From assembly GCA_009914755.4 (NCBI GenBank), contig CP068257.2, positions 30,944,001 through 31,008,000 on the forward strand: DNA of 64,000 nucleotides. Reading direction: 5' to 3'. This document shows, piece by piece, positions 10,043 through 54,291 of this stretch; positions within the stretch are counted from its first letter, which is position 1, and every line of letters begins with the position of its first letter. The DNA comes from the human T2T-CHM13v2.0 reference genome, Homo sapiens. Both the position numbers and the translations under genes were made by a program. Under the pieces are notes generated by a model. The model ran no database searches and was not told where the DNA came from. It saw only the letters and a program-made list of their open reading frames with translations.

Positions 10043-10369
<327 letters not shown>

Positions 10370-12235: not shown

Positions 12236-12430
12236 GTCTGAAAAAGAAGGAAAAAGAAATAAAGAAAGAAAGAAAGAGAAAGAAGAAAGAAAGAAAGAAA
12301 GAGAGAGGTAGGGAGGGAGAGAGGGAGGAAGGAAGGAGAAAGAGAAAGAAAAAGAAAGAAAGAGGAAAGAAAGAGAGAGAGAGAAAGAAGGAAAGAAGGA
12401 AGGAAAGAAGGGAGGGAGGGAGGGAGGGGA
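12236..12430 (+). repeat. Purine-rich (GAAA/GGAA)n simple repeat
   Basis: Long aagaaagaaagagag...ggagggagggag run following a partial Alu. Confidence 0.9.
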
Positions 12431-12439
12431 GAGGTTTGA

Positions 12440-12650
12440 AGAGGCTCACTCTGCCTGAAGACAGGAAGGGACCAGGAGCCGAGGCGCTCTCAGCCCCAGA
12501 AAGGGCAAGGAAGCAGAGCCCACCTCCAGCCTCCAGAACGAATGAGCCTGCCAAGGCCTGGGCTGTAGCTCCACGAGACTCAGCCAGGATTCTGACATAC
12601 AGAACTGTATGAGAACACGATTGTTGTTTTAAACCACTACGTGTCGGTAA
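12440..12650 (+). mobile_element. MaLR (MST/MLT-type) LTR 3' fragment
   Basis: ...ccagaacgaatgagcc...cagaactgtatgagaacacgattgttgttttaaaccactacgtgtcggtaatttgttacggcag matches the MaLR LTR terminus. Confidence 0.6.
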
Positions 12651-14635: not shown

Positions 14636-14638
<3 letters not shown>

Positions 14639-14666
<28 letters not shown>

Positions 14667-14952
14667 GAGGAGTCTCACTCTATTGCCCAGGCTGGAGTAC
14701 AGCGGCGCTATCTTGGCTCACTGCAAGCTCTGCCTCCCAGGTTAAAGCAATTCTCCTGCCTCAGACTCCTGAGTAGCTGGGACTGACTACAGGCGCCCGC
14801 CACTACGCCCGGCTAATTTTTTGTATTTTTAGTAGAGACGAGGTTTCACCATGTTAAGCAGGATGGTCTCGATCTCCTGACCTCGTGATCTGCCTGCCTC
14901 GGCCTCCCAAAGTGCTGGGATTACAGGCGTGAGCCATTGCGCCCAGCCTCGG
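14639..14952 (-). mobile_element. Alu SINE
   Basis: (T)30 then a reverse-complement Alu. Confidence 0.95.
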
Positions 14953-17787
14953 GCAAGCCTATTAAAAACTTCCTAGTGTGCCTCCTCATTTGCACAAGGA
15001 TGTGTGGTAAAGGGTTAACTCAGCAGGCTTGGGGTGTCCAAACCCTGCACATTCAGAGAAAGGTCTGGCCCTGTCCTTCTTCCCAGAGGATACCCTTTGA
15101 GCCCTTGGATTATCTTGCTTGATAAGAGTGTTTACGTTTACCTGCGGCCTCCAGCCATGGCCAAGAGTTCATGGAGTTCATGTTAACAGTGATTTATGTG
15201 GACCCTAGAGCCACACTACATCAATTTGACCTCTGGGATAGCTGGACTGGGTGACTAGGATTAGCCAGCGGAATGATTCAGGCCTATGTGACCGGCTCCC
15301 AGGAGAAGCCCTGGACCCTAAGGCTCGGGGGCTTCCCTGGCAGGTGGTGTTATGTGCACACTGGCACAGTTGTTGCCGACAGAATTAAGTGCACTGGTGT
15401 CTCCTTCAGGTCAGGACGGCGGGCAGCTCACAGCTGGCCTCTCCTGGACTGTGTCCCAAGCACCTTTTTCCTTTGCTTATTTTAATCTGTGTCCTTTTGC
15501 TATAATAAACAGTAACGTTCTGTGAATCCTTCTAGTGAATCATTGACCCTGAGGGTTGTTGGGGGCGTCAGACACAAAGGGGATAAGGACACCTGCCTTG
15601 ACTGCCTCAGAGGGGTCACAGGGAGCTGAGATCCAGCTGTCACAGTGAGGCCATGCAAGTCTGGGGGTTCTTATGACACAGAATTCTAGTGAGGCAAACA
15701 GTACTTTCAGACTGAATAAAGGAGGGGTGTTATTCACTTCCAGCGTCTGTCATCTGCCGAAAGCTACGTGCCCTCTCCACGGAAGATACAGGGGCAGGAT
15801 CTCCCATCCACAGCAGGCACACAGACTCCCAAAGGCCCTGTGCACAGAGCTCTGGATTAGGAACAGATTCCCCCCCCACCGCCCCCCGCCGCCGGGGAGA
15901 GCCCCACACTGCCTTTTCCTCTCAGGATGCCTGACACCATTTAGGGTGGGATGTGGGAAGCTGGCTTCAGGATCAGACCTGAAGACAAGTAGCTGACCTG
16001 GGGGTTGAGCCAGGGCTCACACCTAGGCCCTTCTCCAGGGGGGTTTACCAAAACCAGCCCCATGTCCTGTAGACCTGACTTTTGTCAACACACACATATA
16101 TCCTCCCCTTATGCACAGGTGTTTATGTAAAAGCAATGTATGTTTATATGCCAAGGTGACTTAAAAATTACAAAGTGCGGTACAAACATGTTATTTACGT
16201 TGTGATGAGGATGACAAGGTTTGGATTTCATGCTGTGTGTAATGATGTCAGTTGGAGTTCTTCTTGGGATAAAGGAGGGCAGGCGGTCAGCACAGTTCCT
16301 GTTCTGTGAATCAAGGACCTTCGTTCAAGCAGTCCTTACTGGACACCTGTGTCCTCATCCTTGCTAATACGCCAACCAGCCACACACACTGCACCACAGA
16401 GTCCCTATGTCATACCAGCCCTGCAGGCACCTGTTTCTTGGCACCAAGTGTCTTTCATGAGTGTGAACCCATCTGATGTTAGTGGCCAGTGGGGAAAATG
16501 CCCATGGGAAGTGGAGTGTCGGGGGAGCCCGAGCCTGTGGCCTGGCCATTCTGCACAGTGAGTTGCGGCCAGTACGTTATGTGCTGATGCAATTCATAGC
16601 TGCTCAGCACGACTCTGCCCAGATTCCGTTTATTATCCTACTAAATAATTATTTTCATTGTCTTCATCTTTTTAATTGCACTACTGATGTCTTTATCTTA
16701 AAATCTGAAGAAGGCTCTCTCCATGGGGCAGACTTTGTCATTTACAAGCTAACTGGTGAGAAATTGAAGGGGAAAGTGCGATCACGTTAAGTGCCTTTGG
16801 AAGACCACAATCGGGATGCACAATCACTCAATTATAACTTGGTGGGAAGGGAAGCAGGGAGGTTTGAGGAGGTGAGAGGCGAGACTCTGGTTCAGAAACC
16901 TGTGCTCAGGCCTGAGTCCCTCTCATTGGCCGGGGGTCTTGCAGAAGACACGGCCTCTCTCTGAGCTCAGTTCCTGTATCTGCAGGGACCATGACCCATC
17001 AGCCAGTTGGTATGAAGAGTAAATGGGGGAACCCATGGGACAGCGTGCAGGAAACTCCAGAACGCTGCATATTTCTCTGCATTTTGTGTGTATGACAAGC
17101 CATGTGGGGGTTGTTATTTCCATCAAGCACTAGATGAAATCCATTCTGCTCGATTCTATCTAGTTGTTGCCTTCCTAGAAACACAGGAATAACCTGCAGC
17201 ACCACCCCCTTCTGTTCTGTGGCATTGGCACAATCAAGGAATCTACTTTTGTGCTTTTACACATTGAACTGACAGGTAAGGTCAGGCATCGACTGTCACA
17301 GGGGCCAGTGGAGAGGTAGGAGGGACGCCCACATTCGATGAATCCTGCATCACGGTGTTGGACTTCTTGTTCCACGGTGTTGGACACTAAACTTGTTCAC
17401 ATTCAATAACTTGAGCACGAATAAAGGCAGCTCATAGTAATAACACCTGATGGGTACAGGCCCTGTGCTCTGCTCTAAACACTGCTCCTGTTACCCCTAC
17501 AAGACATGGGCCCTGCATTTCACAAACATGAATTCTGAAGACCATGAATAACTGTTCTGGCCCAGCTCTATTGGGCCCTAACTCTGTGCCCGGGGTCGGG
17601 ATGCGGGTTGTATTTGGAGCCCGTTGCAGATGCGGATTCGTCTGCTCCACGCAGGGTGCTCTGACGTACTCTGTGTGGCCTGGAGCTCAGAAACCTGTGC
17701 TGGACTCAGTGCCTGCAGACGCTGCCCCTGGGTAGCTGTTTTCCAGGCGTCAGGAGACATGCTCCAGAGGCTCCAGAAGCACAGACG

Positions 17788-18143
<356 letters not shown>

Positions 18144-18437
18144 TTACATCACAAATCAGATTAAGGAAAATAAATGTATAGGGAAAAGAGTTAGCAGGTT
18201 GCTATATAATTAGATTAGTCAAATCGTGTTTCAACAAAAATCAGCAAAAACATTCTGTGAGCATCAATTGGTTATGTGGAGTTCATGATAGAGAGTGCAG
18301 CATATCTTATTACTTGTAAGCTGTATGCTACATATCCTTGATATCAGCAAAATTTATAACAAACTTACATCTGTATTTATATGCACATGTATTTTGGGAA
18401 AGCTATTGTTAAACATTTAAGAGTGTACCACTATCAT

Positions 18438-18763
<326 letters not shown>

Positions 18764-19009
18764 CTACATAAATACATACACTGAAAATGCATAATAACTT
18801 CAGCTGCTCTGATACCAAATGCCAACATCCATGAAAATGTCCTACAAGAGAGGGAGGGAGCTGCATCAATTGCGCTGATGACCCTGGGCCAATTGTCCTA
18901 AGATCTGTTAGGTCTGTGATCTGGGAGGGCCCTGGAGATCCTGAGGCAGCAGGTGAGGCCTGAGGCCTGGGACCCCAAACCCAGCTAAAACTAAAAACTA
19001 AAAACTCTT

Positions 19010-19520
19010 AAGTGTAGAGTTCAGTGATACTCACATTCTTGTGCAACCATCAGCACCATCCATCTCCAGAATGTTTTTATCTTCTCAAACTTAAACTCTA
19101 TACCCATTAAACAGTAACTCTCCATCCTTCCCTGCTGTCCCCAGCCCCTAACAACCATCATTCTGCTTTGTCTCTGGATCTGACTACTCTAGGAACCTCG
19201 TATAAGTGGAATCTTACAGTATTTGTCATTTGGTATCTGGCTTATTTCACTCAGTGTAATGTCATCAAGGTTCATCCCTGTTGGAGCATGTGTCAGGATT
19301 CCCTTCCGTTGTAAGGCTGAATAATATTCCATTGTACGGATACACCACCTCTTGTTGACTCATTCATCCTCTTGTTGACTCATTCATCTGTGGATGGGCA
19401 CTTGGGTTGCCTCCACGTTTGAGTTATTGTGAATCATGCTGCCGTGGACGTGGCTGTACTGCAACTGGTTTTGCATTTATTTGAATAGGTGGATTTCAAA
19501 GGTACAAAAGACCATCCTGT
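19010..19520 (-). mobile_element. L1 (LINE-1) 3'-end fragment, antisense on plus
   Basis: Classic L1 3' antisense text: ...ggatctgactactctagg...tataagtggaatcttacagtatttgtc...ggctgaataatattccattgta. There is an internal 19-bp duplication at 19354-19391. Confidence 0.75.
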
Positions 19521-19645
19521 GAACCGTGACTCCCTCCCAGCCCATCCTCCAGGCCCCCTAGAGTTTTAACCACAAGCAGCCATGGTCACCAGTTTCTTGT
19601 GATCTTTCTAAGAGTATGTGAGCATATGTGCTATGCCATGGTAGA

Positions 19646-19965
<320 letters not shown>

Positions 19966-22996: not shown

Positions 22997-23106
22997 AGGC
23001 AACGCCTGGCTACAGTTAGACCCCGCAGCAGGGTTAAAGAAGGCTACAGTTAGACCCCGCAGCAGGGTTAAAGAAGGCTACAGTTAGACCCCGCAGCAAG
23101 GTTAGA
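22997..23106 (+). repeat. Minisatellite, 34-bp unit x3 (gctacagttagaccccgcagcagggttaaagaag)
   Basis: Three near-identical tandem copies. Confidence 0.85.
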
Positions 23107-23289
23107 GAAGTCTCTCCAGCAAGGCTGGGAGTTCAGCTTCCAATAGATCTAGAGGGCCAGGAGAAAAAGCATGCTGAGTGCCTGGCGGCATCTAGTGGTC
23201 ACTAGTGGTCACTGCCAGTCATCAGCTTTCCTCCAATAAACCAGTTATCATGAGAATATAAAACAATCAGGAAGAAAAAAAAGTGTAGC

Positions 23290-33012: not shown

Positions 33013-33440
<428 letters not shown>

Positions 33441-34105
33441 ATGCAAATGTAAAATTCGGTTGCCTGGCCGCACTAGCCACATTCCAAATGCTCTACGGCC
33501 ACAAGTGGCCGGCAGCTGCCCAATGGACAGCACAGATGGGGGCCCTTCCACCGCCGGAAAGTTCTGCGGCAAAGCGGGTGCCCTGGAACCTGCGCGGGGT
33601 AGGGAGACGGCGCCGCAACGCAACAGGCCGTTTCCAGGGCGGGGAAAGATCACCAAGGCTTCCTCAACTGTAAGGGGCCGTCCCAAAGCCAGGTGGCTCG
33701 CTGCTTTACATTGGGCGACTAAAAATAGTAAATTCAGCTTTTAAAAGCCCACCTAGTTCTCATCTCACCCCTCACACGTGATTAATTGCACTAAGTCTGC
33801 TGTTCAGCCCGGCCTTTCGGCTCCCTCCTCCCTCCCCAGCCCATTTCCACTTATTCGCAGCACCCCAAATCCTGGCTCCGAGAGGCACCTGGGCCCACCT
33901 CCCAGCCCGGGGTGTCAGACAGGCCGGATCTTCTCCGGTTCCTTATTCATCTCCGGTTAACCCTAGTGTCCCGTTTCAACCCCGGCTGCTGCAAATCTCT
34001 TCAATAATCTTCACAAACCTGACCCCTCGGCCCACCCTGCCCCTCTTTCTCCATCCCACGCCGGTCTCTCGATCTGTCCGGGATGGGCCCACCCGCGAGC
34101 CGCAC

Positions 34106-34244
34106 CTGAGCAGAGGCGCTGCACCTTGAGCCGCCCATTATAGACCCGGGCCACCTGCACCGTGAGCTCCTCCAGCTCGGTACTCCCAGGCGCCTGCAGC
34201 AGGAACTGGCTCTCGTCGCCCCGCTTCACGTGCAGCAGAACCAT
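34106..34244 (-). CDS. CFAP298: CFAP298 exon 1 coding part (MVLLHVKRGDESQFLLQAPGSTELEELTVQVARVYNGRLKVQRLCS-)
   Basis: ATG at 34244-34242 on the minus strand and donor TCAG|gtgcgg. 139 nt. The 5' UTR extends upstream to an unseen TSS around 34.3-34.45 kb. The seven exons sum to 873 nt, giving 290 aa plus stop. Confidence 0.9.
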
Positions 34245-34418
34245 GGCGGTCCCGCCGAGGTACTGAGGCGTTGAGAAGGCCCCGGCTGCGTGGCCCGCGG
34301 GTCCTGCCGGCCGAGGGTCGCCGGATCGCCAGCAGCTGCGACGCACTAACAGCCGCTCACAGTCCGGAATCCCACGCTCCCTAGCCCGCGGTGAGCGGGG
34401 GAAACGGCACTCGCTCCC

Positions 34419-34427
34419 GGAAGTGGA
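34419..34427 (+). promoter_or_regulatory. ETS/GABP-type motif CCGGAAGTG
   Basis: Exact CCGGAAGTG about 180 bp upstream of the CFAP298 ATG in the gene's sense frame of reference. A second identical copy lies at 34627-34635. Confidence 0.5.
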
Positions 34428-34626
34428 TGTTGCCAAGAGCAACAGTGAAGCAGAGTTAAAGAGCCGCCAGCTCAAGCTCAGAACCCGAGTGGGGGAGGCT
34501 GGGGTGCACCGAGGCCCAGCAATCCAAGCCCGTACGGAGCTGCGGCCGGGGAAACCACCCACACAGTCTGAGAGGACAGCTGATTCTGAGCGGACCGACG
34601 GAAGGAGATTCGCAGAGCCCCTTCCC

Positions 34627-34635
34627 GGAAGTGAC
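34627..34635 (+). promoter_or_regulatory. ETS/GABP-type motif CCGGAAGTG (second copy)
   Basis: Identical 9-mer 208 bp from the first copy. Paired ETS sites are typical of CpG-island or bidirectional promoters. Confidence 0.45.
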
Positions 34636-35220
34636 TGTTGTCGCGGCAACTGCCAAAACACAGACCAAGTCGCTGAAGGGGAGGGCGGACCTCCCAATCG
34701 ACTGGTCTGGGGCCCGAGATTTCCACTCAGGGAGATACGTGGGCTGAGATGGGAGTTACTAGATGGGGAACGGGAAATACGGCGGGAACCACAATCGCGC
34801 AGTTCCGCAGCTGCCGCCCCACAACCGCTCCACATTCCAGCGTCCCTTCCGCCGCTTTCAGTCTCCACTTCCGGCAACGTTTCCACGCTGTTTCCGGCCT
34901 GGGAAAGTTCGGCGGCAGCGACCCAGAACTGAGTCTTGCTGTTCGCTGCTGTTTGCGCGGGTCAGCTTTTCAGGACGGAGGGGCCAGGGCGAGTGTCCGC
35001 ACTTCTTCGTTCAGGTTGATTTGGATGGCGTTGCTGGGGTAGCTCCAGCGGCCCCTGCCAGAGCGACCCTCCCAGAAATATCCAGCCATCCTCCAGCGGA
35101 CTCTTGCTGAAGGCAGTCGGCGTCAGTCGCTGTTTATTCCGGGCCCCACAGATCCAGAGTCACTGCTCTCATGGAGCTTATATTTTAGTGTGACAAAAAG
35201 AAAACAAAAATAAATGGACA

Positions 35221-35521
35221 GGCCAGGAGCGGTGGCTCACGCGTGTAATCCCAACACTTAGGGAGGCCGAGGAGGGCGGATCACCTGAGGTCAGGAGTTC
35301 GAAAGCAGCCTGGCCAACATGGTGAAACCCCTTCTCTACTAAAAATACAAAAATTAGCCGAACGTAGTGGCGCGTGCCAGTAATTCCAGCTACTAGGGAG
35401 CCTGAGGTGGGAGAATTGCTTGAACCCGGGAGGCGGAGGTTGCAGTGAGCCTAGATCGCGCCACTACCCTCCAGCCTTGGCGACAGAGTGAGACTGTGTC
35501 TCAAAAATAATAAATAAACAA
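35221..35521 (+). mobile_element. Alu SINE
   Basis: Alu consensus. Confidence 0.95.
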
Positions 35522-35587
35522 ACGGACAACACAAATTCAAATACAGATCTAAAGAAAACTAAACAGGTTGATGGACTTCTTATGTTT

Positions 35588-36679
<1,092 letters not shown>

Positions 36680-36761
36680 TAAAATGGGCACAATATCCCT
36701 AAAGTTTCACATTCCGAAACATTTTTTAAATATTTGCTTTTTAGAAATTTGTTTCAATTAA

Positions 36762-37430
36762 GAAACTGCGGTATACACACACAATGAAGTATTATTCAGC
36801 CTAAAAAGGAATAAAATCCTCTCCGCTGCAGAAAAAATGGATGAGATTGCAGGTCTGTATGTTAAGTGAAATAAGCCAGGCACAGAATGACAAATATTAC
36901 ATGTCCTCACTTATACGTAGGAACAAAAAAGAAAATCTTGGCCAGGTGGCTCAGGCCTGTAATCCCAGCACTTTGGGAGGCCGAGTTGCACGGATTACTT
37001 GAGGCCAGGAGTTTGAGAGCTGCCTGGCTAACATGGTGAAACCCCGTCTCTACTAAAAACACAAACAATTAGCCAGGCGTGGTGATGCGTGCCTGTAGTC
37101 TCAGCTACTCGGAAGGCTGAGGCCCAAGAAGCGCTTGAACTCGGGAGGTGGAGGTTGCAGTGAGCCTGGACTGTGCCTGTATGCTCCAATCTGGGCAATG
37201 GAAAGAGACTCCATCACACACCTACAAACAAAAGGAATCTCAGGAAGGTGGAGAGTATAAAGGGGGTTAGCAGACGCTAGGAAGAAAAGGGGTGGATGGG
37301 GAATGAGGAGAAGTGGATAATTGGGTCCCAAAATACAGAAAGATGGAGTAAGTGAGTTCTAGTGTTTGATAGTACAGTATGAAAATTTTAGTTCACAAGA
37401 ATTTCTTGCATATTTCCAGATGCTTTGGTA
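36762..37430 (+). mobile_element. L1 3'-end fragment interrupted by an Alu at 36940-37220
   Basis: tattcagcctaaaaaggaataaaatcc...gtgaaataagccaggcacagaatgacaaatattacatgtcctcacttata is the L1 ORF2-end and 3' UTR sense strand. Confidence 0.7.
36940..37220 (+). mobile_element. Alu SINE nested in L1
   Basis: Alu consensus, older and diverged. Confidence 0.9.
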
Positions 37431-37497
37431 AGAAGCTTCCTAACTTTCTCATTATGCTGGTTTTTAAGCTCTTGTCTTCTGCTCTTGAAATCATGCT

Positions 37498-38035
<538 letters not shown>

Positions 38036-38833
38036 TAACCCCAAGTGCTAAAAGTATAATATGCCTCAAAGAAAACATTGGCCACACTTTCATGACATCA
38101 GATTGGGCAATGCTTTCTGGGATATGACACCAAAAGCATAGGCAACGAAAGAAAATTAGATTCCTTGGATTACATCTAAATGACAGACACTTTTGTGCAT
38201 CAAAAAACACTGTGAACTGAGTGAAAAGATAACCCATGGATTCGGAAAAATATTTGCAAATCATATATCTGAAAAGAGGCTGATATCCATCATGTATAAA
38301 GAACAGCTAGAACTAAGCAACAAGAAACCCAAAGCATCCCATTGACAATGGTCAGAAGACTCGAGTAGACGTGTCCCTAAAGAAGATACAGCAATGGCCA
38401 ATAAGCATCTAAGATGATGTTCAAAATCACTCATCATAGGGAAGCGCAAATCAAACCAATAATGTGATACCACACATTAGGATGGATATGATAAACAAGC
38501 ATTGGTGAGACTAGAGGGAAGTAGGAATGCTCGAATATGATTGCAGGGAATGTAAAACCGTGAAGCAACAGTGAAAATAGTATGGCGTGTACTGGAAAAA
38601 TTAGAAACAGAATTATCAGATGTTCCTGCAGTTGCATTTGTGGGTACCTACCAAAAAGAATTAGAAGCCAGGAGTGGAAGAGATATTTGTACACCCATAT
38701 TCATAGCAGCATTATTCACAACAGCCAAAATGTGGAAGCAACCCGAGGGTTCGTGGACAGATGAATGAAAAAGCACACTGCAGTTCATTCATACAGTGGA
38801 AGACTATTCAGCCTTCAAAAGGCAGGCACTTCT

Positions 38834-39216
<383 letters not shown>

Positions 39217-39249
39217 TTATCGTCAGTGAAATAAATAAATCCCAGAAGG

Positions 39250-39598
<349 letters not shown>

Positions 39599-41249
39599 CT
39601 AGAGTAGTTAAACTCATAGAGTTGTGAACTAGAATGGTGGCCCCCAGGGGTGGGCGAGAGAGAGGAATGGAGAGTTTGGTGAATGGGTGCAATTTCCATT
39701 TTGAAAGATAAAACTGTTCTGGAGATGATGGCGGTGATGGTTGCTAAACAATGTGAATGTACTTAATGTCATTAAACTGTAAACTGAAAAACAGTGGAAA
39801 TTGTAAATGTTTATACTGGCCATTCTATAGGAAATAATATATATTTATAATTTTTAATATTTATATGTGGTATATTTTCCCATAATCAAAGATGAAAATG
39901 AAAGCAGTTGGATCTTTAAAAAGGAAAGAAGCGAATAATACGTACCAGCTTTCTCCTGATTAGAGGAAGAGCCCCAAAGCTTCTATGGACACTCACTTTT
40001 CTCTTCTTCTTGCATTATTATGAGGAAATCCTTAGAGGTTGGGGAACTTGGGTGACTTTGGCTAATGAGGAGCTCTGTGCCTTGAGGCCCCCAGGCCACA
40101 GAATAGTAAATACTCAGTCTGTGCCTCCAGCCCTGCAGTGTGAGGTTCCAGTCCTGTGGGCTCCACACCCGTCACCTGTATCAGGAGGCTCATGTCTCAC
40201 CCTGTCTTCTTGCCAGCCTTGAGGACGGAGTCTGAGCCTCCATCATGCACCACGCAGGGAGGACAGTGGACCTGTTCTCCGTGGTCACGGCCTAGCAGAG
40301 GGGAAGGGCAGTTCAGTGAGTGCTGAGGGACCGCTGGGAGGCTTGTTTTGTTTCCTCATCCTCAAGACAAACAAGAGAGTGCGGTGGGCAGATGGGAGGA
40401 GACCAATGTGCAAACTGTCCACTCAGCAGACTGTGGAGTTTCTGTTCTTGGTTGTGGTGGGGGGTCTCAGAAATCTTATTCAAAATTTTGCTTTCCTCCC
40501 CCACTGGTTGTCCTTTTCATAGACATCTCATCCATGATAGCAGGGAATGAGTCTCTCTAAACTATTCCCTAAGAACAACAAAAAGATTATGAAGGTGATG
40601 ATGAGGATAAAGAGGATGATGACAGACACCATGGCACCATGAACCCTTACTGAGGGCTTCCTAAAGGCCAGACTCTGAGCTCTGTGCTCTATGCAGCTTG
40701 TTTCATTTCATCTGCGTAGTCTCCCAGTTATTAGTGCACATTTCATTATTATTTTACAGACTAGAAAAGGAGCAACGCATTTTCATATAACTTGTACCAG
40801 ATCATGAAGTCAAAAAGGGTGAAGTCCAATTTGAACCAGGCAGTCTAAGTCCAGACACATGGCATTTGGCCAGTCCTCTCCCTGCATCCAACCTGCCCTC
40901 TCAAATCCTTGTCACTCAGGCCGATGCCCCTGCTCACTGTGCCCTTCCCTTTGGGGGTTCCTTGTAGACCACAGCTAGACCAGTGGGTGCCACAATCACT
41001 GTGTCAAGTATAGAAAGGGCAGCTGAGATCACATCAAGGATTCCAGAAAGAATTAGTACAGGATCATTCGGGATGCATCTCTCCCTTGCCCCTGTTCCTG
41101 GCTTTCCTTACAGCTCTCGACTTCCTCAAAGGAGTCATCAGTTCGGAGATTGGCTTCCATTCCTATTGAGGAAGCTGGAAACCGTTTCAAAAATGCTCCT
41201 CAGATGTGCCTGTGGTTAAGACCTCTGAGCTCTGCTTAAAACTTTTTGA

Positions 41250-41599
<350 letters not shown>

Positions 41600-42109
41600 T
41601 TAGAGTCTGGCCATGAATTTGGAATACCACCCTTTCTACTTATCTGTATGGCAAAGGGTGAGACGTCCATCCTCTGAGACTCAGCACTCTCATCTGAGTT
41701 GATCTAGTTGATCCAATGGAAGTGAGCGATGATGAAACCGATCGTGGGTGCCCGCTGCGTGATCTCTATGTGATGGATGCATAAAGTAAAGGCAAAGTGA
41801 ATTTTAGATACATTCATTAATATTTTAAGCTTAAAGTCCATACAATTCACCGGAAATATCCCCTGACCTGAAGTTCTGGTTTCCCTGCATTCCAAACAGG
41901 ACATTTTGTTTTGTCTTTGTCTCGGTAAGTACTGAGTATTGTGAGAGGAACAAGTGAGTGTCTTCTGTTTCTGATTCCCCAGAGTCTATATCTTGCTTGG
42001 CACATAGGAGATAGCAAAAGGAAACATCTATGTCAATTACTGAATCGACACTTCCTTGGTTCACAAACATTGGCTGTCATCAGCGTGACTTCGACTTACT
42101 TGATTCTTT

Positions 42110-42407
<298 letters not shown>

Positions 42408-43089
42408 AAACGTTCTTATGAAAATTCTAAGTCCACCTAAGCTAAGGACAGGAGTTATAGCTTACATGAATTTTAAAACAAGATGCACCGATTTGAGTAA
42501 GCAATTACTCTCTTGAAGGAGAAAAGTCAGAAAGCATAATGAAATCACTAGGACCTAACTGGCATGTGGAACTATTTTCTGCTTATGAACTATCAACTTT
42601 AATTTCATTTCCAGATGGCATGGTTTCAGCTGTTATACAGTGTTTATAAATGTTCTAAATCAAGGGAATTTGTATCAATCTATTAGAATAAAATAAAATA
42701 TTTGAGTTCTTAATTTCCTTTAATTAGGATAACCTTTTTCTTAAAGTGAAGAGAATGGTTTTATTACATATTTTTCTTCGGAAAAGATAGGCTATATTTT
42801 CTAGCAATTACGAATTTGTTATATATGATGATCTGGTTCTTGGAACATTCTTGAATCTAGTGTCTCTAAGGCAGGTGTGTAGAGCAAGAAGTGAATAACA
42901 CAGAAATCAATGATGAAAGCATTAGAAGACAATTGAGTTTGTCAGAACTGTAAAATATTGCTGAGTGTGGATTGCTCTGAAATCTGAAAACATGACTTGT
43001 GAATTGCTTATATCCAAAATGCAGACACAATGCTGGGTGTTGGTTTACTTGTTTCCGGTTTTTCAACCCTCTTTTCTAAGCAAAAGATG

Positions 43090-44020
43090 TCCAAACTATA
43101 CAGACCCACAGAATCTAACAGATGTCTTTATATTCCTCCTCCTAGAACTCTCAGAGGATCCAGCACTGCAGCTGGTCGTCACTGGGCTGTGCCTGTGTGC
43201 CTGGTCACGGTGCTGTGGAACCTGCTCAGCATCCTGGCCGTCAGCCCTGACTCCCACCTCCACACCCCCATGCACTTCTTCCTCTGCAACCTGTCCTTGC
43301 CTGACATCGGTTTCACCTCCACCACGGTCCCCAAGATGATCGTGGACATCCAATCTCACAGCAGAGTCATCTCCTATGCAGGCTGCCTGACTCAGATGTC
43401 TCTCTCTGCCATTTTTGGAGGCATGGAAGAGAGACATGCTCCTGAGTGTGATGGCCTATGACCAGTTTGTAGCCATCTGTCACCCTCTGTATCATTCAGC
43501 CATCATGAACCCGTGTTTCTGTGGCTTCCTGGTTTTGTTGTCTTTTTTTTTCTCAGTCTTTTAGACTCCCAGCTGCAAAACTTGATCGCCTTACAAATCA
43601 CCTGCTTCAAGGATGTGGAAATTCCTAATTTCTTCTGTGACCCTTCTCAACTCCCCCATCTTGCATGTTGTGACACCTTCACCAATAACATTATCATGTA
43701 TTTCCCTGCTGCCATATTTGGTTTTCTTCCCATCTCGGGGACCCTTTTCTCTTACTATAAAATTGTTTCCTCCATTCTGAGGGTTTCATCATCAGGTGGG
43801 AGCTATAAAGCCTTCGCCACCTGTGGATCTCACCTGTCAGTTGTTTGCTGATTTTATGGAACAGGCGTTGGAGGGTACCTCAGTTCAGATGTGTCGTCTT
43901 CCCTGAGAAAGCGTGCAGTGGCCTCAGTGATGTACACAGTGGTCACCCCCATGCTGAATCCCTTGATCTACAGCCTGAGAAACAGGGATATTAAAGGTGT
44001 CCTGTGGCAGCCGTGCAGCC
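43090..44020 (+). pseudogene. OR7E-family olfactory receptor pseudogene with at least 3 frameshifts and no intact start
   Basis: OR signature peptides are spread over three frames: [124 protein letters not shown]. The closest recalled family is OR7E. I cannot verify the locus name (possibly OR7E23P). Confidence 0.8.
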
Positions 44021-44104
44021 GCACGGCAGCACAGTCTCATCTCAATATCTTATCTGTTCCATTCCTTTTGCAGGATGGGTTAAAAAAGGCAGCAAGGTCA
44101 AATA

Positions 44105-45885
44105 AGAATGACATCCCAGGGTGAACACCCACTGTGATATTACGAGTAATACCTCCCTAGGATATAAAAAACACTGTCACAGAGTATACACATGGGGTAC
44201 ACCCACTGTGATATTAGAAGCAATATCTCCCTAAAATATTATGAAAAATATCACAGGGTGTGCAGAGACTGTGTGATATTAGGAGTCATATTTGCCCTGG
44301 TTATTACGACTAATATCAAGGGTGTACACACACGGGGTAAACTTACTGTGATATCAGGAGTTGTATCTCCCTGGGATATTATGAATAATATCACAGGGTA
44401 TACACTATGTGTGTACATCCACTGTGATATTTGAAGTAATATCTCTCTATGAGATTACAAATAATATCAAAGTGTGTACACCCCTGTGACATATTAGGAG
44501 TAACATCCTTCTAGGGTATTACAGATAACGTCACAAGGTGTACACCTTCTGTGACATTTTGTGCACCCTTTGTGACATTAAAAGAAACAACCCCCTAGGA
44601 TATTACGAATAATGACACGGGCGGTTTACACACATGGTGTACACCTCCTGTGCCATCAGGGGTAACATTCCCCTAGGATATTACGAATAATATCACAGCA
44701 GGTGAACACACATGGTGTACACCCCGTGTGACATTAGGAGGAACATGCCCCTAGGGTATTAGGAATAGTATCACAGGCGTTGAATACGCATGATATACAC
44801 CCCCGGTGACATTAAAAGTAACATCCCCCTAGGATATTAACAAGAATATCACAGGGAGTACACCCCATGTGACATTAGGAGTAACATCCCCCGAGGATAT
44901 AACGAATAATATCAGAGGGTGTACACGCATTGTGACATTAGTAGTAACAGCCCGCTATGATATGACGAGTAATATCACAGGGTGTACACCACGTGTCACA
45001 ATTGTAGTAACATTCCCCTAGAATATTACGAATAATATCACAGGAGGTACAGCCCCTGTGATTCACGAGTAACATTTCTATAGAATATTACAAGTCATAT
45101 CACTGTGTGACTCTGTGTACACCCCATGTGACATTGGGAGTAACATCCCACAAAACTATTACAAATAATATCACAGGGTGAACACCCTCTGTGACATGAG
45201 GAATAACGTAGTTTTAGGATATTATGAATGATATGACAAGGTGTACACACCCTGTGATGTTAGAAGCAACATCCGTCTAGGATATTAGGAATAATATCAC
45301 AGGGAACACACCCCCTGTGACATTAGGATATTACAAATAATATCACAAGGTGTACACGCATTGTGACATTAGTAATAATATCCCTCTCATATACTATGAA
45401 TAATATCACAGGGGGTACATCCCTGTGACATTAGGAGTAACATCCCCCTAGAATATGATGAATAATATTGCAGGGGGTACACACCCTGTGACTTCAGGAG
45501 TATCACCGCCCTGGAATATGAGGAATACTGTCCCAGGGTATTAACCCCCTGTGACCTGAGGAGTAACATCCCGCTGGAATATTATGAATAATATCACAGT
45601 GTGTACACCAACTGTGATATTAGGAGTTCTATTTATTTTTAGGATATTAGGGATAATATCACAGCAGATATACACAAATAGTGTGTACACCTACTGTGGT
45701 ATTAAAAGTTATGTCTCCCTAGGGTATTGCGAATAACATCACAGTGGGTGTACACCCACTGTGATATTTGAAGTAATATCTCCCTAAGATATGACAAAAA
45801 ATATCAAAGGGTGGACCCCGTCTGTGACATCAAAAATAACATCTCTTGTGGATATTCCGAATAATATCACTGGGGAGTGTGTATT
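44105..45885 (+). repeat. Satellite-like tandem array 2: ~64-74-bp unit, ~27 copies, dimer of ~32-bp subunits each carrying GATATTA-N4-TAATATC
   Basis: Periodic gtgtacaccc.ctgtgacattaggagtaacatccccctaggatattacgaataatatcacagg. It starts about 90 bp after the OR pseudogene. Confidence 0.9.
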
Positions 45886-46485
45886 GGGGAAGGGGGCCTG
45901 TGGGGAGAAAGTGTATGACTGAAGGCCTGGAAATGCCCAAAGCCAATCCCGGCTTCATAGGAAGACTGATAACTGATAGTGGATAGAAGGGGGATGGAGC
46001 CTTAGGGGGAAGATGTGTTATTATTTCTTGTACTGTTGAGACAGGGATCACCCAAACGCTGGAACAGGCAGTACTGGTCTGATTGGCAAATGTCTATCTC
46101 GCCGGAAGGAGAAATGGGCTACTATGTTTTCTTAGCTCCTGACTGCCCGCCATAAGGTCATGCCCTTTCTCTTGAATCCAATTCTGTACCCATCAACTTC
46201 TTAAAATTTTACAGTATAGCCTTCCAGATAGAGAGCTACATGTCCACAAACTTACATATTTTACAGGGTCTCAATATAATTTTTAATAATATTGAGAAAT
46301 GTAGAAAATCGTTGCATAAGAACCCATGTACTGACCATCCAGTTTTGTTTAAATATGTAGGTTAGTAATCATCTAGTGATTATTAAAATCACCACAGATC
46401 AAGCCTGTGCAGTATCTTTAAATTTGTCAGCCCTGGTATTCGTTGTCCTCATGACTTTATTATAACTGCATTCTGTTCAGCATTT

Positions 46486-46782
46486 TCTTTTTTTTCTTTT
46501 TTCTCTTTTTTTGAGACAGAGTCTCACTCTTGTCGCCCAGGCTGGAATGCAGTGGCTCATTGCAACTGCTGCCTCCTGGGTTCAAGCAATTCTCCTGCCT
46601 CAGCTTCCTGAGTAGCTGGGATTACAGGCGCCTGCCACCACGCCCAGCTAATTTTTGTATTTTTAGTAGAGACGGGGTTTTGCCATGTTGGCCAGGCTGG
46701 TCTCGTGACCTCAGGTGATCCGCCCGCTTCAGCCTCCCAAAGTGCTGGAATTATAGGCGTGAGCCACCACCTGGCCCTGTTC
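46486..46782 (-). mobile_element. Alu SINE with 17-bp TSD ctgttcagcattttctt
   Basis: Reverse-complement Alu with a perfect flanking duplication. Confidence 0.95.
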
Positions 46783-47346
46783 AGCATTTTCTTAAGGTCC
46801 TTTTCTTCTCATACAGGTCTTGTCTTAAATATCTGTGGTTAGCTCTTTCTTGGTGTGGTTTCAGCAATCATAAATCATGCAAAGCCTGTTGTCTTGCCCT
46901 CAGGCACCCAAGTGACTTCTGAATCTGAAGACCAAGATGACACCTGGTGTGTGGTCTTGTGAGTTTTGGCTGGTTTTCTCTTAGTGTTTTAGGTGCTGTT
47001 TCTGTTCTAGGATGAAGAGCATCTTATGACCATTTGTATCTGTTAAGCAATTCATCAGTGATTAACGTCCTGGTCTGGATAATTTATGAGTCATTCATGA
47101 TGGCTGCTGGATGTCAGGCAGCCAGAAAGAAAAAGAGAAAATTTAACTCTATTGACTGCTTTTTTTTTGTCCTAATACACTACAGATACAGTTAAAGCCC
47201 CCACATACCTCTTTCTAATCCCATTCTCTTCTTCTTCTCCAGAGGTAAATTGCTATTCTAAATTTGGTGTTTATCATTTCCATTGCATGTTTTTTATACC
47301 ATTAACGTGTATGTACCCCTAAAAATATATCCTCGTGTATTTTAAA

Positions 47347-47646
47347 TTTTTTTATTTATTTATTTATTTATTGAGATGGAGTCTCACACTGTCGCCCAGG
47401 CTGGAGTGCAGTGGTGCAACCTCGGCTCACTGCAACCTCCGCCTCTCAGGTTCAAGCGATTCTCCTTGCCTCAGCTTCCCAAGTGGCTGGCATTACAGGC
47501 GCCCGCCACCAAGCCCAGCTGATTTTTTTGTATTTTTAGTAGAGATGGAGTTTCACTATGTTGGCCTCGAACTCCTGACCTCGTGATCCGCCCGCCTTGG
47601 CCTCCCAAAGTACTAGGATTACAGGCATGAGCCACCGCGCCTGGCC
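47347..47646 (-). mobile_element. Alu SINE
   Basis: Reverse-complement Alu with a TSD-like ttttaaat. Confidence 0.95.
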
Positions 47647-48129
47647 TTTTAAATGTTATATAAATGGTGTCTTACTATTTTGTATCTTGCTTTATGGCTA
47701 CACCGTGAGGTTTTCTCATATGTTCTTTTCACTCACTTATTTTCACTGCTGTCTACGATTCCACTGTATGACTATGCCACTCCACTCCCCTGTTGATGTT
47801 TATTTGTGGTTTTCACCATTACAAACAATGCCTCTCATGCTCCACAGGTCCTAGTTTCTCTAGAAGTCGGATTTCTTATTGATAGGGTATATGAATTTTA
47901 CCTAACATTGTTAAATTGTTTTCTTGAGCTGATGTGCCAGTTTACCCTTTCACCAACCATGTTAAGAGTTCCCCTCTCTCCATATAATTGGTAATCCTTG
48001 ATACGGTCAGACATTTTTCTAACATTAATAAATTGGTGTTTTAATTTATACATCAGTTTCTTGTGAGTTTGCTTATTACATGCCTATCACCCTTGCTATA
48101 GTTTCTGGTCCTGCAGAGCTCAGAATCTG

Positions 48130-49470
<1,341 letters not shown>

Positions 49471-49526
49471 AAGAATTTCAAATATCAATCAGACAGGTCT
49501 GAAAAAAGGCAATACTAGCCTTGGCT

Positions 49527-50141
<615 letters not shown>

Positions 50142-50328
50142 GGCCTTTTAATTTGGGTCTCTTTAGGCAGTCCCTTTTTCTGACTGGCTATTTTTGTCCC
50201 AATTCCTCTTTGCCCCCCACTTGTTCCTTCTACTTTGGGTAAGAAAAATCATTCATATTTCTTGTATTATTTTCAAGTCAGCATGTTTTTGCGTGAGGGC
50301 CTCTCTTATGGAATAAGTGCATGGACTT

Positions 50329-50546
<218 letters not shown>

Positions 50547-50759
50547 ATGGACTTTTTAATAATGATTAGTAATCTCGGAAAATCTTCTTAGTTTTAGAGG
50601 AAGCACTATCTGGAGAAATGAAAATAAGGTCTTGAATTAAAATATCTGATTCGGCAATAAGGGTTAAGCTTATTTTGTTTGAACGTCACCAAACTTGTGT
50701 ATGTAAAGTACAAGGAAAATGGCTGAGAAAAATTCTTCCCTTTCTAACAAAGAAGTCAG

Positions 50760-52995
50760 CATGGTAAAGACAGATATATTTATTTCATATGACAGCACGT
50801 TTCACAGGATATGTACAGAATGTCTGTGTACCACTGACTTTAATACTGTACTTCTATAAAGTTTATAGTTATAAATATTGTATGCCACATAAGCAATAAA
50901 ATTCTTACATATAAACAGCAATCTAATATAGAGAACACAGAGTTCACAAAGAGATCCTTAGTGTCTAACTTCTGCTCTGCTTTTAACAGAACTAGTAAAT
51001 ATTTAATAATACATAGAATAATGGCTAGTTATTTGCAGCATACCTTTAACTTTCATAACTTTGTGCATTTTCAGCAACTTGCCAAGTATAATTTTCCTGA
51101 TAAAGGCTGGGCTGCTGATATGTATATTTTAGACAGTAGTTTATATTCAATAGGAAACATTGCTCACAGATCTGCAATTTGCACTAGTGAAGTTTACCTA
51201 ACAATGAATTATTTTGCTAATGGAGAGCAAATACCATATACACTAGTCACATGGATGTTAAAGCCACAGTTTCAACAAGTTAATTCACATTTTGAAGCAA
51301 CTGCTTATAGTAATACTGCTGTTTAAGACGCTACTGCTGAAATGATTAGAACCTCCAAAAAGCACAATATAAAACTCACAAGAGTTATTTCTAACAGCAA
51401 ATCTTGGCTGTTAACAGAGAAGATTACTTCTATAAATATAGTATTTTGATAACATTTGAGCATTTAGAAAAATGCTTTTTTTCTAATAGATTTGCTTTAT
51501 AAGTGCAGTGCAGTTTGCTGTGCTTTTAACATTCTACATATTCGTAGCCATGAACGCTATTTTTTGATATTCCCTCAATGTACATCTTTAAAGGTTAAGT
51601 GTGGACATAGGAATTTAGGTGGACATATACAACTCTTTATATAAAAGGAATGTTAATGTAAGTCTTAATGGGTAAAGATGATTGTAACTGAAACTGACAA
51701 AGAAACAACTATTGCTCAAGGAGTTTTCTGATTGGTTTACTTAATGATATCAAAATACTACATTCTGTAAAAATTCTGTGTACTTCTTCAAAAAATTAAT
51801 AAAAGCGGGATCAGTTGCATATTGGCAGTGCAGGAGACAAAATCCGCAGCTACTTTGAGGTATAGCCTCTAAAAACTTAAAGCAGCATCATAGATGTGTT
51901 ATGTAGCCTCGTAAGAGGGGGGAGAACACACACTGGGTATATTCCCAATTCAAAGCACTCAGGGGACAGCTGCTTTCCCTGCTAAAAGCAAAGTTCCAGA
52001 GCAAAAGCAGCAAAAAGAAAATATGGGAGGGATATGGGCAACGTATACTCGAACGTACGCAGAGAAGAGAGTACGGTTAGCTCTAATATTTCTCATTGAA
52101 CTTGGTGGTATGTGCCTTCCCTGCATATAAGGCCATAGTGCTTTTTTGGGAGCGCTAGAATATCCATCCACTTGACAGTGACCACAAAATAGGCTGTTTC
52201 CAGCTGCAAGAACCTCCTCCTGGAGAAAAGCGTATGAAGGTGCTGGAGTGAAAAGTAACAAGGTTGTGTGTATTTGAAGGGGTTGGGTGTGGAACGGTAG
52301 AAAATTCTGATTCTGTGGTGAGATTATTCTAGTTTTGAAAACAAAATTAATGAAAGGTCCAAATTACATTTGCAGCCATCTTTTTGGTAATGTGATATTG
52401 AAAAAGGGACTTTGTTGGAACTTTTAGGTATAATTTGGTCTGAGTTATAGCCTAGAAATTAAAGTATGAATTGTAAAAATATGTAAATGTATACAGAAGT
52501 ACATGTGTTTGTATGTATTATATATGTACACATACCTATACTTTTTTCCTTTAAAGCAATGCCTTTCAAAACTCTGTTCACTGTAACCTTGGCAGCTCTT
52601 TGGTAAATACTCAAAGATACCAATTGTTAACAAGTATGAGAGGGCTGGTGGAAATGTCAGCTGAAAGTTGGGTGGGCTTTTTGAGATTCTTCAGAAGACT
52701 GACCGAAAAGTTTCTGAATAAGGACTGTTTTCTAAAGTATAAGTACTTTTTATGGCTACTACTGTCTCCTATTCATCCAAAGAGAAATACATCAAAACTC
52801 CAGTTAACAATGAGAAGGGTTTTTCCTTATTTCCAATATACACATAGTCCAACTCTGTACACATCAAATAGTGGTGTTTTGTGAAGATATCAGTGCACTT
52901 ACAATGACTTATTGCACATAATGAAATACTAATGCCCAATTCTCTTAGCTCTATCCTGCCAAAAGCAAGTACCCACTGTTTTCTATTGCATGGCG
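50760..52995 (-). other. SYNJ1: SYNJ1 3' UTR (extent inferred)
   Basis: Follows the stop codon at 52998-52996. Candidate minus-strand AATAAA at 50784-50779. The ~2.2 kb length is compatible with remembered transcript size. No direct evidence for the cleavage site. Confidence 0.35.
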
Positions 52996-53835
<840 letters not shown>

Positions 53836-54291
53836 TCAGTTTATATTTACTCTTAATACCCCCTATTCTTCCTGTCTCAATTATTCTTCCCTTTTAGGGG
53901 CAAGCATGTAAATTTAGAAACTAAAAAGTAGCTTTGTGTAGTTTGTTACTCCGGTGGTTTAAATAACATGAAACACCTACAGTCTTTAAAAACTTCTTTC
54001 TAAATAAATCCTTTCTAATTAAATCCATTTTTAAATCCCTCAAAATCAAAGAGCTTATTTCATTCATGCAAGTTTTGAAATGGTAAGAAGGAGAATTGTA
54101 CAGAATTAACAAATTTGTTCATGCCCAGTTCTATCACATTTCAGCATGAACTTAAGAAATCCATACTTATAACTTATGCTAAATCTATATAAATAAAATT
54201 CTAACACCCATCTATGATGATGATGTGGTTTCATTGTTCTTTTAAGTGTGTTTTCTAAAATTAATGTTACTATGGAAATTCAATTTTATAG

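What the first reader, a model, noticed from the sequence alone, without database searches (positions are those of the whole stretch)
43090..44020. OR7E-family olfactory receptor pseudogene stranded between SYNJ1 and CFAP298
All hallmark OR motifs are present (LHTPMYFFL-like, MAYDRYVAICxPLxY-like, KAFSTCxSH-like and PMLNPxIY) but are spread over three reading frames, with no intact start codon. This is a decayed single-exon OR of the 7E type, a family known for dispersal by segmental duplication. Its placement in a non-OR gene neighbourhood, flanked by satellite arrays, suggests arrival as part of a duplicon.
Basis: partly seen in the sequence, partly recalled or inferred. Interest (0 to 1): 0.5.

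Follow-up and report, generated by a model that had tools for sequence, protein, structure and literature searches.

The report
Dead OR7E smell-receptor gene in Xiao duplicon
This is the already catalogued human olfactory-receptor pseudogene OR7E23P. It sits inside a published 10-kb "Xiao" duplicated segment that was pasted between SYNJ1 and CFAP298 in the ape ancestor, so it is real but ordinary and already known.

Summary
The finding is real, and its interpretation is right in substance. Window 43019-44022 (+) is a decayed single-exon olfactory receptor of subfamily 7E.
- **Family:** Pfam 7tm_4 E=2e-35. It is 81-89% identical to primate "OR7E24-like" proteins, 72% to OR7E24, and 51-57% to the 7A/7C/7D/7G proteins listed.
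- **Location:** It lies between CFAP298 (all 7 coding exons, minus strand, 34244-23867) and the last coding exon of SYNJ1 (53814-52996, minus strand).
- **Already named:** The literature places OR7E23P beside SYNJ1 and C21orf59. All four published junction primers for the "21q-32 Mb Xiao" element match the window exactly.
- **Empty site:** The orthologous locus of an Old World monkey (Nasalis) lacks window 35603-45868 (10,266 bp) and carries 189 bp of other sequence instead. Part of that 189 bp is conserved in tarsier. So this was an ape-lineage insertion with a target-site deletion and no target-site duplication.
- **Structure of the insert:** SATR-like satellite array, then a 7.5-kb unit of the ancestral 7E gene cluster, then a second SATR-like array. 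It has no HERV-E arms.

The motifs use two reading frames, not three. The ATG used by intact monkey homologues is preserved at 43019-43021.

The oldest disabling lesion, a 4-nt insertion, is shared with paralogues, so the gene was probably dead on arrival. Novelty: already known. Interest: low.

The parts
35603..45868 (+). Whole inserted duplicon, the published '21q-32 Mb Xiao', 10,266 bp. It is absent from the orthologous Old World monkey locus.
   Evidence: Window 33419-35602 and 45869-53995 align to Nasalis L003 10836-8694 and 8504-413, and nothing between them aligns. The junctions were read. Published primers H21-32L and H21-32R match exactly at 35119-35138/35890-35909 and 45499-45518/46088-46107.
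35603..36242 (+). Left SATR-like satellite array, about 8 copies of a 75-nt unit. It is a different subfamily from the right array (about 63-65% identity) but in the same orientation.
   Evidence: TRF. Left array compared with right array. The array begins exactly where homology to Nasalis ends.
36241..36570 (-). Alu element lying between the left satellite and the start of the core.
   Evidence: Member of repeat families D3 and D9. A T-run at 36238-36271. Homology to the monkey 7E locus starts at 36571.
36571..44104 (+). Core: one unit (inter-gene DNA plus one OR) copied from the ancestral tandem 7E OR cluster, with later Alu insertions.
   Evidence: Colinear with Cercocebus atys L002: 36571-37484, 37846-41027 and 42218-44104 at 84-88%. 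L002 carries another 7E OR about 11 kb upstream. Also colinear with Rhinopithecus L005. The remaining pieces, 40802-41256 and 41634-42002, match the next unit of L002.
43019..44022 (+). OR7E23P coding-region remnant. The ATG at 43019-43021 is preserved.
   Evidence: Codon-aware alignment to the intact Cercocebus CDS, 91.2% nucleotide identity. tblastn with Colobus P0005. Pfam 7tm_4 E=2.2e-35.
43195..43196 (+). Site of a 4-nt deletion (TCCA) in TM1, giving the first frameshift along the gene. Private to this copy among those compared.
43428..43431 (+). 4-nt insertion (GAGA) just before the MAYDRF motif. It is shared with the bonobo paralogue, the ENA-contig paralogue and a Rhinopithecus copy, so it is the oldest lesion.
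   Evidence: Five-way alignment.
43543..43544 (+). 2-nt insertion in a poly-T run, which returns reading to the other frame.
   Evidence: Shared with L006. A T-run is prone to recurrent slippage, so sharing is weak evidence here.
43849..43851 (+). In-frame TGA (TTA>TGA, Leu277 of the monkey protein), private to this copy.
44007..44014 (+). 8-nt tandem duplication that shifts the frame of the C-terminal tail, private to this copy.
44105..45868 (+). Right SATR-like satellite array (63-78-nt units) starting about 85 nt after the OR.
   Evidence: TRF. The same OR|satellite junction is present in bonobo L001, Rhinopithecus L005 and contig L006 but not in Cercocebus L002. The array ends where Nasalis homology resumes.
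34107..34244 (-). Context: CFAP298 coding exon 1. Its ATG at 34244 is 1,359 bp from the left junction. The remaining six coding exons run down to 23867. The 34107 end is inferred from where the tblastn match to the protein stops, not from a mapped splice site.
   Evidence: tblastn. 100% identity to Pan CFAP298, PF11069.
52996..53814 (-). Context: SYNJ1 last coding exon (proline-rich tail). Its stop is 7.1 kb from the right junction.
   Evidence: ORF. It is orthologous to the 3' end of the gene called in Nasalis and tarsier with Syja_N, Exo_endo_phos2 and DUF1866 domains.

Best explanation
The sequence is OR7E23P, a non-functional single-exon olfactory-receptor gene of subfamily 7E. It is a passenger in a solitary 10.3-kb 'Xiao' core duplicon.

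**Origin of the duplicon (shown).** It is one unit of the ancestral tandem 7E OR cluster, consisting of about 6.4 kb of inter-gene DNA plus one OR. SATR-like satellite arrays cap it on both sides.

**Insertion (shown).** It lies 1.36 kb upstream of the CFAP298 start codon and 7.1 kb downstream of the SYNJ1 stop. It is absent from an Old World monkey orthologue. It replaced 189 bp of ancestral DNA and left no target-site duplication.

**Timing (from the literature).** PCR found the locus in all apes including gibbons and not in monkeys, which the authors date to about 18-25 Myr ago.

**Mechanism (inferred).** This was a break-and-repair type duplicative transposition with both breakpoints inside satellite arrays. 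It was not retrotransposition.

**State of the gene (shown for the lesions, inferred for the timing).** The 4-nt frameshift at 43428-43431 is shared with paralogues, including a copy in an Old World monkey, so the OR was already dead when it moved. At 21q it later gained a 4-nt deletion, a nonsense codon and an 8-nt duplication. The 2-nt poly-T insertion is shared with the closest paralogue (L006), so when it arose is unclear. The gene does nothing as a receptor. Any effect on CFAP298 regulation is untested.
For: - **OR identity and subfamily:**
- **Disabling lesions and which are shared:**
- **Flanking genes:**
- **Empty orthologous site and exact junctions:**
- **The 189 bp is ancestral:** the Nasalis segment is partly alignable in tarsier, at positions 213-326 and 398-788.
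- **The core is homologous to monkey 7E loci:**
- **Satellites:**
- **Published identity of the element:** primers match exactly. [quoted passage not shown]
- **Xiao described as an OR7E gene flanked by SATR2, SATR1 and ERV1:** PMC5088589.
- **OR7E23P named next to SYNJ1 and C21orf59:** PMC2674219.
Against: - I could not compare the window with the HGNC/HORDE OR7E23P record itself. The name is assigned from position plus the fact that the window holds only one OR.
- The published Xiao architecture has SATR-HERV-E-SATR arms and a total length of about 30 kb. This copy has only satellite caps and is 10.3 kb.
- The literature reports target-site duplications at most Xiao loci. None is present here.
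- The empty site was seen in one monkey species plus tarsier. Presence in gibbon rests on published PCR, not on sequence I examined.
- 'Dead on arrival' assumes the shared 4-nt insertion is identical by descent rather than spread by gene conversion.
Confidence: 0.93

Rival explanations
1. The duplicon moved as a composite LTR-retrotransposon-like element, the hypothesis Ji & Zhao and Li et al. raised for Xiao/DA. On this view it used HERV-E arms and left a target-site duplication.
For: PMC2700803 reports 4-9 bp TSDs at most un-rearranged Xiao/DA loci. It also reports amplification timing that coincides with group I HERV-E activity.
Against: - At this locus there is no TSD and 189 bp of target DNA is missing.
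- No HERV-E sequence lies inside the inserted block. All of it is accounted for by satellite, Alu and 7E-cluster DNA.
- The cargo contains unspliced inter-gene DNA.
- The authors themselves say there is no evidence for retrotransposition.
Confidence: 0.04
2. The OR is an ancient resident of this locus, a relic of an old OR cluster at 21q, and the monkey lineage lost it.
For: None beyond its presence in the window.
Against: - The block is absent in Nasalis, and unrelated DNA that is partly conserved in tarsier fills the gap.
- Tarsier also has only about 8 kb between SYNJ1 and CFAP298.
- The block is 84-88% identical to paralogous monkey 7E loci over 7.5 kb, including non-coding DNA.
- PCR was negative in monkeys and lemur.
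Confidence: 0.01
3. The OR is still a working or segregating gene, and the lesions are reading or assembly errors or are polymorphic.
For: The ATG, all hallmark motifs and about 83% amino-acid identity to intact monkey proteins are retained.
Against: - Restoring an ORF needs four independent repairs: three frameshifts and a nonsense codon.
- One frameshift is shared by paralogues in three species.
- Key motif residues have changed: MAYDRF to MAYDQF and PMYFF to PMHFF.
Confidence: 0.01
4. The inserted block has been co-opted as a regulatory element or non-coding transcript that affects CFAP298, whose start codon is only 1.36 kb away. This is not exclusive of the main explanation.
For: Proximity only.
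Against: There are no expression or chromatin data here. CFAP298 protein and gene structure are conserved with or without the insert.
Confidence: 0.04

Closest known systems
OR7E23P (HGNC olfactory receptor family 7 subfamily E member 23 pseudogene, 21q22.11)
   Same: It has the same chromosomal neighbourhood: within 100 kb of SYNJ1 and C21orf59/CFAP298 (PMC2674219) and listed as 'pseudo' at 21q22.11. It is the only OR-like sequence in the window, it belongs to subfamily 7E and it is disrupted.
   Different: No difference is known. The reference record itself could not be fetched for a base-by-base comparison.
Xiao core duplicon (Ji & Zhao 2008; Li et al. 2009, PMC2700803; Mohajeri et al. 2016, PMC5088589)
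   Same: It has a 7E-OR-derived core flanked by SATR satellites and is ape-specific. The published locus-specific primers for the 21q-32 Mb copy match exactly. The Xiao internal-junction primers match with 2-3 mismatches at 40052-40544.
   Different: This copy is 10.3 kb with satellite caps only. It lacks the HERV-E (ERV1) parts of the canonical SATR-HERV-E-SATR arms and has no target-site duplication. It is solitary and is not part of a DA block.
Intact Old World monkey 'OR7E24-like' genes (e.g. Cercocebus atys L002 ORF 11749-12759; Colobus P0005)
   Same: About 91% nucleotide and 83% amino-acid identity, the same start codon and a single coding exon. The same upstream inter-gene DNA runs for about 6.4 kb.
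   Different: The monkey genes are open and sit in a tandem OR cluster with no satellite within 10 kb.
Human OR7E24 (the intact 7E gene on 19p13.2, the region named as Xiao's donor in PMC2700803)
   Same: Same subfamily. The Theropithecus OR7E24 protein (representative of a 100-member cluster) is 72% identical.
   Different: OR7E24 is a more distant branch than the 'OR7E24-like' genes. The direct progenitor is therefore another member of that cluster.

Membership tests
Olfactory receptor (class A GPCR, Pfam 7tm_4) | Significant match to the OR profile across the seven-helix region | tested here: met
   7tm_4 E=2.2e-35, profile positions 4-273 of 280. 7tm_1 E=3e-25.
Olfactory receptor (class A GPCR, Pfam 7tm_4) | Hallmark motifs LHTPMY, MAYDRY, KAFSTCxSH and PMLNPxIY in the right order | tested here: met
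   LHTPMH, MAYDQF, KAFATCGSH and PMLNPLIY are all present and colinear with the monkey protein. Two motifs carry substitutions.
Olfactory receptor (class A GPCR, Pfam 7tm_4) | Coding region in a single exon | tested here: met
   Colinear with the uninterrupted 1011-nt Cercocebus ORF, differing only by 2-8-nt indels.
OR subfamily 7E (HORDE/HGNC rule: above about 60% amino-acid identity within a subfamily; rule recalled from memory) | Closest to 7E members and clearly more distant from other family-7 subfamilies | tested here: met
   81-89% to OR7E24-like proteins, 72% to OR7E24, and 51-57% to the 7A/7C/7D/7G proteins listed.
Pseudogene | Reading frame disrupted relative to intact homologues | tested here: met
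   Three frameshifts (-4, +4, +2), a TGA and an 8-nt duplication.
Xiao duplicon | Core of about 10 kb derived from the 7E OR cluster | tested here: met
   36571-44104 is colinear with monkey 7E loci at 82-88%.
Xiao duplicon | SATR satellite arrays at both ends | tested here: met
   Arrays at 35603-36242 and 44105-45868. The names SATR1 and SATR2 could not be assigned because no repeat library was available.
Xiao duplicon | HERV-E within the flanking arms (SATR-HERV-E-SATR) | tested here: not met
   The whole inserted block is accounted for by satellite, Alu and 7E-cluster DNA, and the sequence outside it is orthologous to the monkey locus. This copy is a core with satellite caps.
Xiao duplicon | Target-site duplication of 4-9 bp (reported for most loci) | tested here: not met
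   The left flank ends ...GGGAATG and the right flank starts CTGGGGAG.... There is no duplication, and 189 bp of ancestral sequence is lost.
Xiao duplicon | Insertion present in apes and absent in Old World monkeys at the same site | tested here: met
   Absent in Nasalis by sequence. Presence in all apes comes from published PCR.
Xiao duplicon | Identity with the catalogued 21q-32 Mb copy | tested here: met
   All four junction primers match 20/20, in the correct orientation and straddling both junctions.
Segmental duplication (at least 1 kb and at least 90% identity to another genomic copy) | A paralogous human copy at 90% identity or more over 1 kb or more | tested here: inconclusive
   - 95.5% over 1.1 kb to contig L006 (an ENA metagenome contig whose human origin is presumed, not shown), but 86% over 3.2 kb when the satellite is included.
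- 92% over 1.2 kb to a bonobo paralogue.
- No human genome was available to search.
OR7E23P (HGNC entry) | Sequence identity to the reference record | not testable with these tools
   Only positional evidence from the literature.

The most novel reading that the evidence does not exclude
The OR-plus-satellite module, including its first frameshift, may be older than the published 18-25 Myr origin of Xiao. A Rhinopithecus (Old World monkey) locus carries the same 4-nt insertion and the same OR|SATR junction as a lone copy, with no second OR within 10 kb either side. So a proto-Xiao may already have existed, or even dispersed, in the catarrhine ancestor. At 21q the element integrated by break repair with a 189-bp deletion rather than by a transposon-like mechanism.
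Probability: 0.3. Interest if true: 0.3.

Novelty: already known. Interest (0 to 1): 0.1.

Why it matters
It matters little as a discovery. The pseudogene has an HGNC name, and the duplicon that carries it has been described, dated and PCR-typed across primates.

Its value is as a clean, solitary example of the Xiao core duplicon, the element found at the breakpoints of the 8p23.1 rearrangements. Here both junctions and the empty ancestral site can be read base by base. At this copy the integration removed 189 bp and left no target-site duplication. That argues for a break-repair mechanism rather than the transposon-like mechanism proposed for the family. It also shows that the receptor was very probably dead before it spread.

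Tried and rejected
- **Papers not held.** Newman & Trask 2003 (PMC430936) and Ji & Zhao 2008 (PMC3092482) could not be read. Their content is cited only through later papers.
- **Ape orthologues not retrieved.** Look-ups for gibbon, bonobo and human CFAP298 isoforms (P0214, P0225, P0198) found no gene on record. Ape orthologues were therefore not examined, and the window's species was not confirmed by direct record matching.
- **First blastn unusable.** The first comparison with paralogous loci was swamped by Alu hits and crashed on a file name. It was redone with length filters.
- **Paralogue search gave only one partial match.** I looked in the bonobo paralogue L001 for a full-length Xiao to compare. 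Homology there stops 155 nt upstream of the ATG (window 42864), and an Alu sits at the OR/satellite junction. It helped only for the coding region and the satellite.
- **189-bp segment not relocated.** I checked whether the 189-bp Nasalis segment had simply moved elsewhere in the window or into the paralogues. There were no matches.
- **No retroviral remnant.** I checked whether window 40.8-42.4 kb hid one. It matches the next unit of the monkey 7E cluster plus two Alus.
- **IFITM-like gene is monkey-specific.** I checked whether the CD225/IFITM-like gene next to Nasalis CFAP298 is present in the window. It is not.

Full report
**1. What is at the coordinates**

Reading 42700-44500 and translating three phases shows an olfactory-receptor-like sequence on the + strand.
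- [23 protein letters not shown] and [17 protein letters not shown] are in the phase of position 43030.
- [15 protein letters not shown] and the N-terminal [15 protein letters not shown] are in the phase of position 43031.
- The third phase carries nothing OR-like.

A stitched translation hits Pfam 7tm_4 at E=2.2e-35 and 7tm_1 at 3e-25.

**2. Family**

A search of the large protein collection returned 7,990 proteins at E<=1e-20.
- The hits with the highest identity are all called olfactory receptor 7E24-like: Old World monkeys at 81-85%, Pan paniscus at 89% and Pongo at 79%.
- OR7E24 itself is 72% identical.
- The family-7 members of other subfamilies that are listed (7A, 7C, 7D, 7G) are 51-57% identical.

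**3. How it is broken**

The Cercocebus atys locus L002 holds an open 1011-nt homologue. A codon-aware alignment gives 91.2% nucleotide identity and the following lesions in the window:
- a 4-nt deletion between 43195 and 43196;
- a 4-nt insertion at 43428-43431;
- a 2-nt insertion in a T-run at 43543-43544;
- TTA>TGA at 43849-43851.

A multiple alignment adds an 8-nt tandem duplication at 44007-44014.

The frame path uses two phases, not three: ATG phase, other phase, ATG phase, other phase.

The ATG at 43019-43021 aligns with the start of the Cercocebus ORF and of the 336-aa Colobus and Rhinopithecus models, which begin MQTQCWV. 'No intact start codon' is therefore not correct. Other gene models (macaque, OR7E24) use a spliced upstream start, so the true start is model-dependent.

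**4. Which lesions are old**

In a five-way alignment the 4-nt insertion at 43428-43431 is shared by:
- the window;
- a bonobo paralogue (L001);
- a contig from an ENA metagenome that is the closest paralogue found (L006, 95.5% identical in the OR and presumably human DNA);
- a Rhinopithecus roxellana copy (L005).

Only the intact Cercocebus gene lacks it. The 4-nt deletion, the TGA and the 8-nt duplication are private to the window copy. The inference is that the receptor was already frameshifted before this copy was made.

**5. Neighbourhood**

- tblastn with the CFAP298 protein, written from memory, finds all seven coding exons on the minus strand from 34244 down to 23867.
- The same protein is 100% identical to chimpanzee CFAP298 (PF11069) in the database.
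- A 272-aa proline-rich ORF at 52996-53814 (minus strand) is orthologous to the 3' end of the gene called with Syja_N, Exo_endo_phos2 and DUF1866 domains in Nasalis and tarsier. That gene is synaptojanin.

**6. It is already named**

- PMC2674219 states that the 100-kb region around a SYNJ1 SNP also contains C21orf59 and OR7E23P.
- PMC12779367 lists OR7E23P as a pseudogene at 21q22.11.
- The window has only one OR-like sequence.

**7. It is inside a published duplicon**

- PMC2700803 describes Xiao as a roughly 10-kb core from the 19p OR7E region flanked by SATR-HERV-E-SATR arms.
- PMC5088589 describes the Xiao core as OR7E flanked by SATR2, SATR1 and ERV1.
- The supplement of PMC2700803 gives the primers H21-32L and H21-32R. 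All four match the window 20/20, at 35119-35138 and 35890-35909 and at 45499-45518 and 46088-46107, straddling the two ends of the block.

The window element is therefore that published copy.

**8. Direct test of 'arrival'**

The orthologous locus of the proboscis monkey (L003) aligns to window 33419-35602 and 45869-53995, with nothing in between. The window's 10,266 bp (35603-45868) are replaced in Nasalis by 189 bp (L003 8505-8693).

That 189 bp has no match anywhere in the window or in the paralogous loci. It is partly alignable in tarsier, together with both flanks, so it is ancestral.

The junctions read as follows:
- Left: the flank ends ...GGTCAGGGAATG and the satellite begins TACACC....
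- Right: the satellite ends ...AATAATATCA and the flank begins CTGGGGAGTG....

There is no target-site duplication, and at most 1-2 bases of possible microhomology. My inference is that integration was by break repair with loss of target DNA, not by a transposon-like cut-and-paste or a retroviral mechanism.

PMC5088589 notes coordinated loss of sequence at another integration of this duplicon family.

**9. Anatomy of the block**

| Window | Content |
|---|---|
| 35603-36242 | Satellite, 75-nt units |
| 36241-36570 | Alu |
| 36571-44104 | 7E-cluster unit |
| 44105-45868 | Satellite, 63-78-nt units |

- The core is colinear with Cercocebus L002 at 84-88%, where a second 7E OR lies one unit upstream. 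It is also colinear with Rhinopithecus L005.
- The stretches not covered by the main alignments are Alus or match the next unit of L002. There is therefore no room for HERV-E, and this copy is a core with satellite caps.
- The two arrays are different subfamilies in the same orientation.
- I could not assign the names SATR1 and SATR2 without a repeat library.
- The Cercocebus locus has no such satellite. The bonobo paralogue, contig L006 and Rhinopithecus L005 have it at the same junction after the OR.
- SATR satellites are abundant in macaque genomes (bioRxiv 10.1101/2025.08.04.668424).

A simple reading (inference) is that the progenitor was a tandem array of satellite-core-OR units, and that the copied piece was cut from satellite to satellite.

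**10. Rough dating (inference)**

- The orthologous flanks are 89-93% identical between the window and Nasalis.
- The core is 82-88% identical to the monkey 7E loci, so those are paralogous branches older than the ape-monkey split.
- The closest paralogue found is 95.5% identical in the OR. That fits dispersal roughly 20 Myr ago and the published window of 18-25 Myr.

**11. Verdict**

The finding is correct in substance, with two wrong details (frames and start codon). It concerns a catalogued pseudogene in a catalogued duplicon.

The new small points are the exact junctions, the 189-bp target deletion without a duplication, the absence of HERV-E arms in this copy, and the shared frameshift that also occurs in an Old World monkey copy. 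None of these changes the classification, which is already known and of low interest.

Noticed in passing
window 9160-19657: About 10.5 kb downstream of the 3' end of CFAP298 has no counterpart in the Nasalis orthologue. Two window Alus (10042-10347 and 19645-19941) both match the single Nasalis Alu at the gap. This suggests an Alu-Alu recombination deletion in the monkey or an ape-lineage gain.
   Followed up: partly
L003 25131-25469 (Nasalis), corresponding to window about 20200: Nasalis has an intronless 112-aa CD225/IFITM-like ORF just 3' of CFAP298. It is absent from the window and is probably a monkey-specific retrocopy.
   Followed up: partly
window 8201-9159: TG-rich minisatellite with a 30-nt unit (58-nt higher order), about 32 copies at 79% match. 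It ends where the 10.5-kb lineage difference begins.
   Followed up: no
L005 4971-12805 (Rhinopithecus roxellana, 130.9-Mb chromosome): An Old World monkey copy carries the Xiao-type core, the same 4-nt frameshift and the same OR|satellite junction as a lone OR. Its left flank (4971-5651) recurs inverted next to the bonobo paralogue's OR (L001 9669-9009, 85.6%). I did not resolve whether this is the 19p-type donor or a dispersed copy.
   Followed up: partly
L006 (ENA ERZ1034174 NODE_212, 5,357 nt): A metagenome-assembly contig is a primate 7E pseudogene plus SATR arrays. It is 95.5% identical to the window in the OR and is presumably host (human) DNA in a metagenome. After the right-type satellite it carries the left-type satellite in inverted orientation.
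   Followed up: partly
window 23008-23110: Three near-perfect (97%) copies of a 34-nt unit lie just 3' of the last CFAP298 coding exon.
   Followed up: no
window 34011-35110: A GC-rich stretch with long overlapping ORFs on both strands surrounds CFAP298 exon 1. It looks like a promoter CpG island and lies only about 0.5-1.4 kb from the left end of the inserted duplicon.
   Followed up: no
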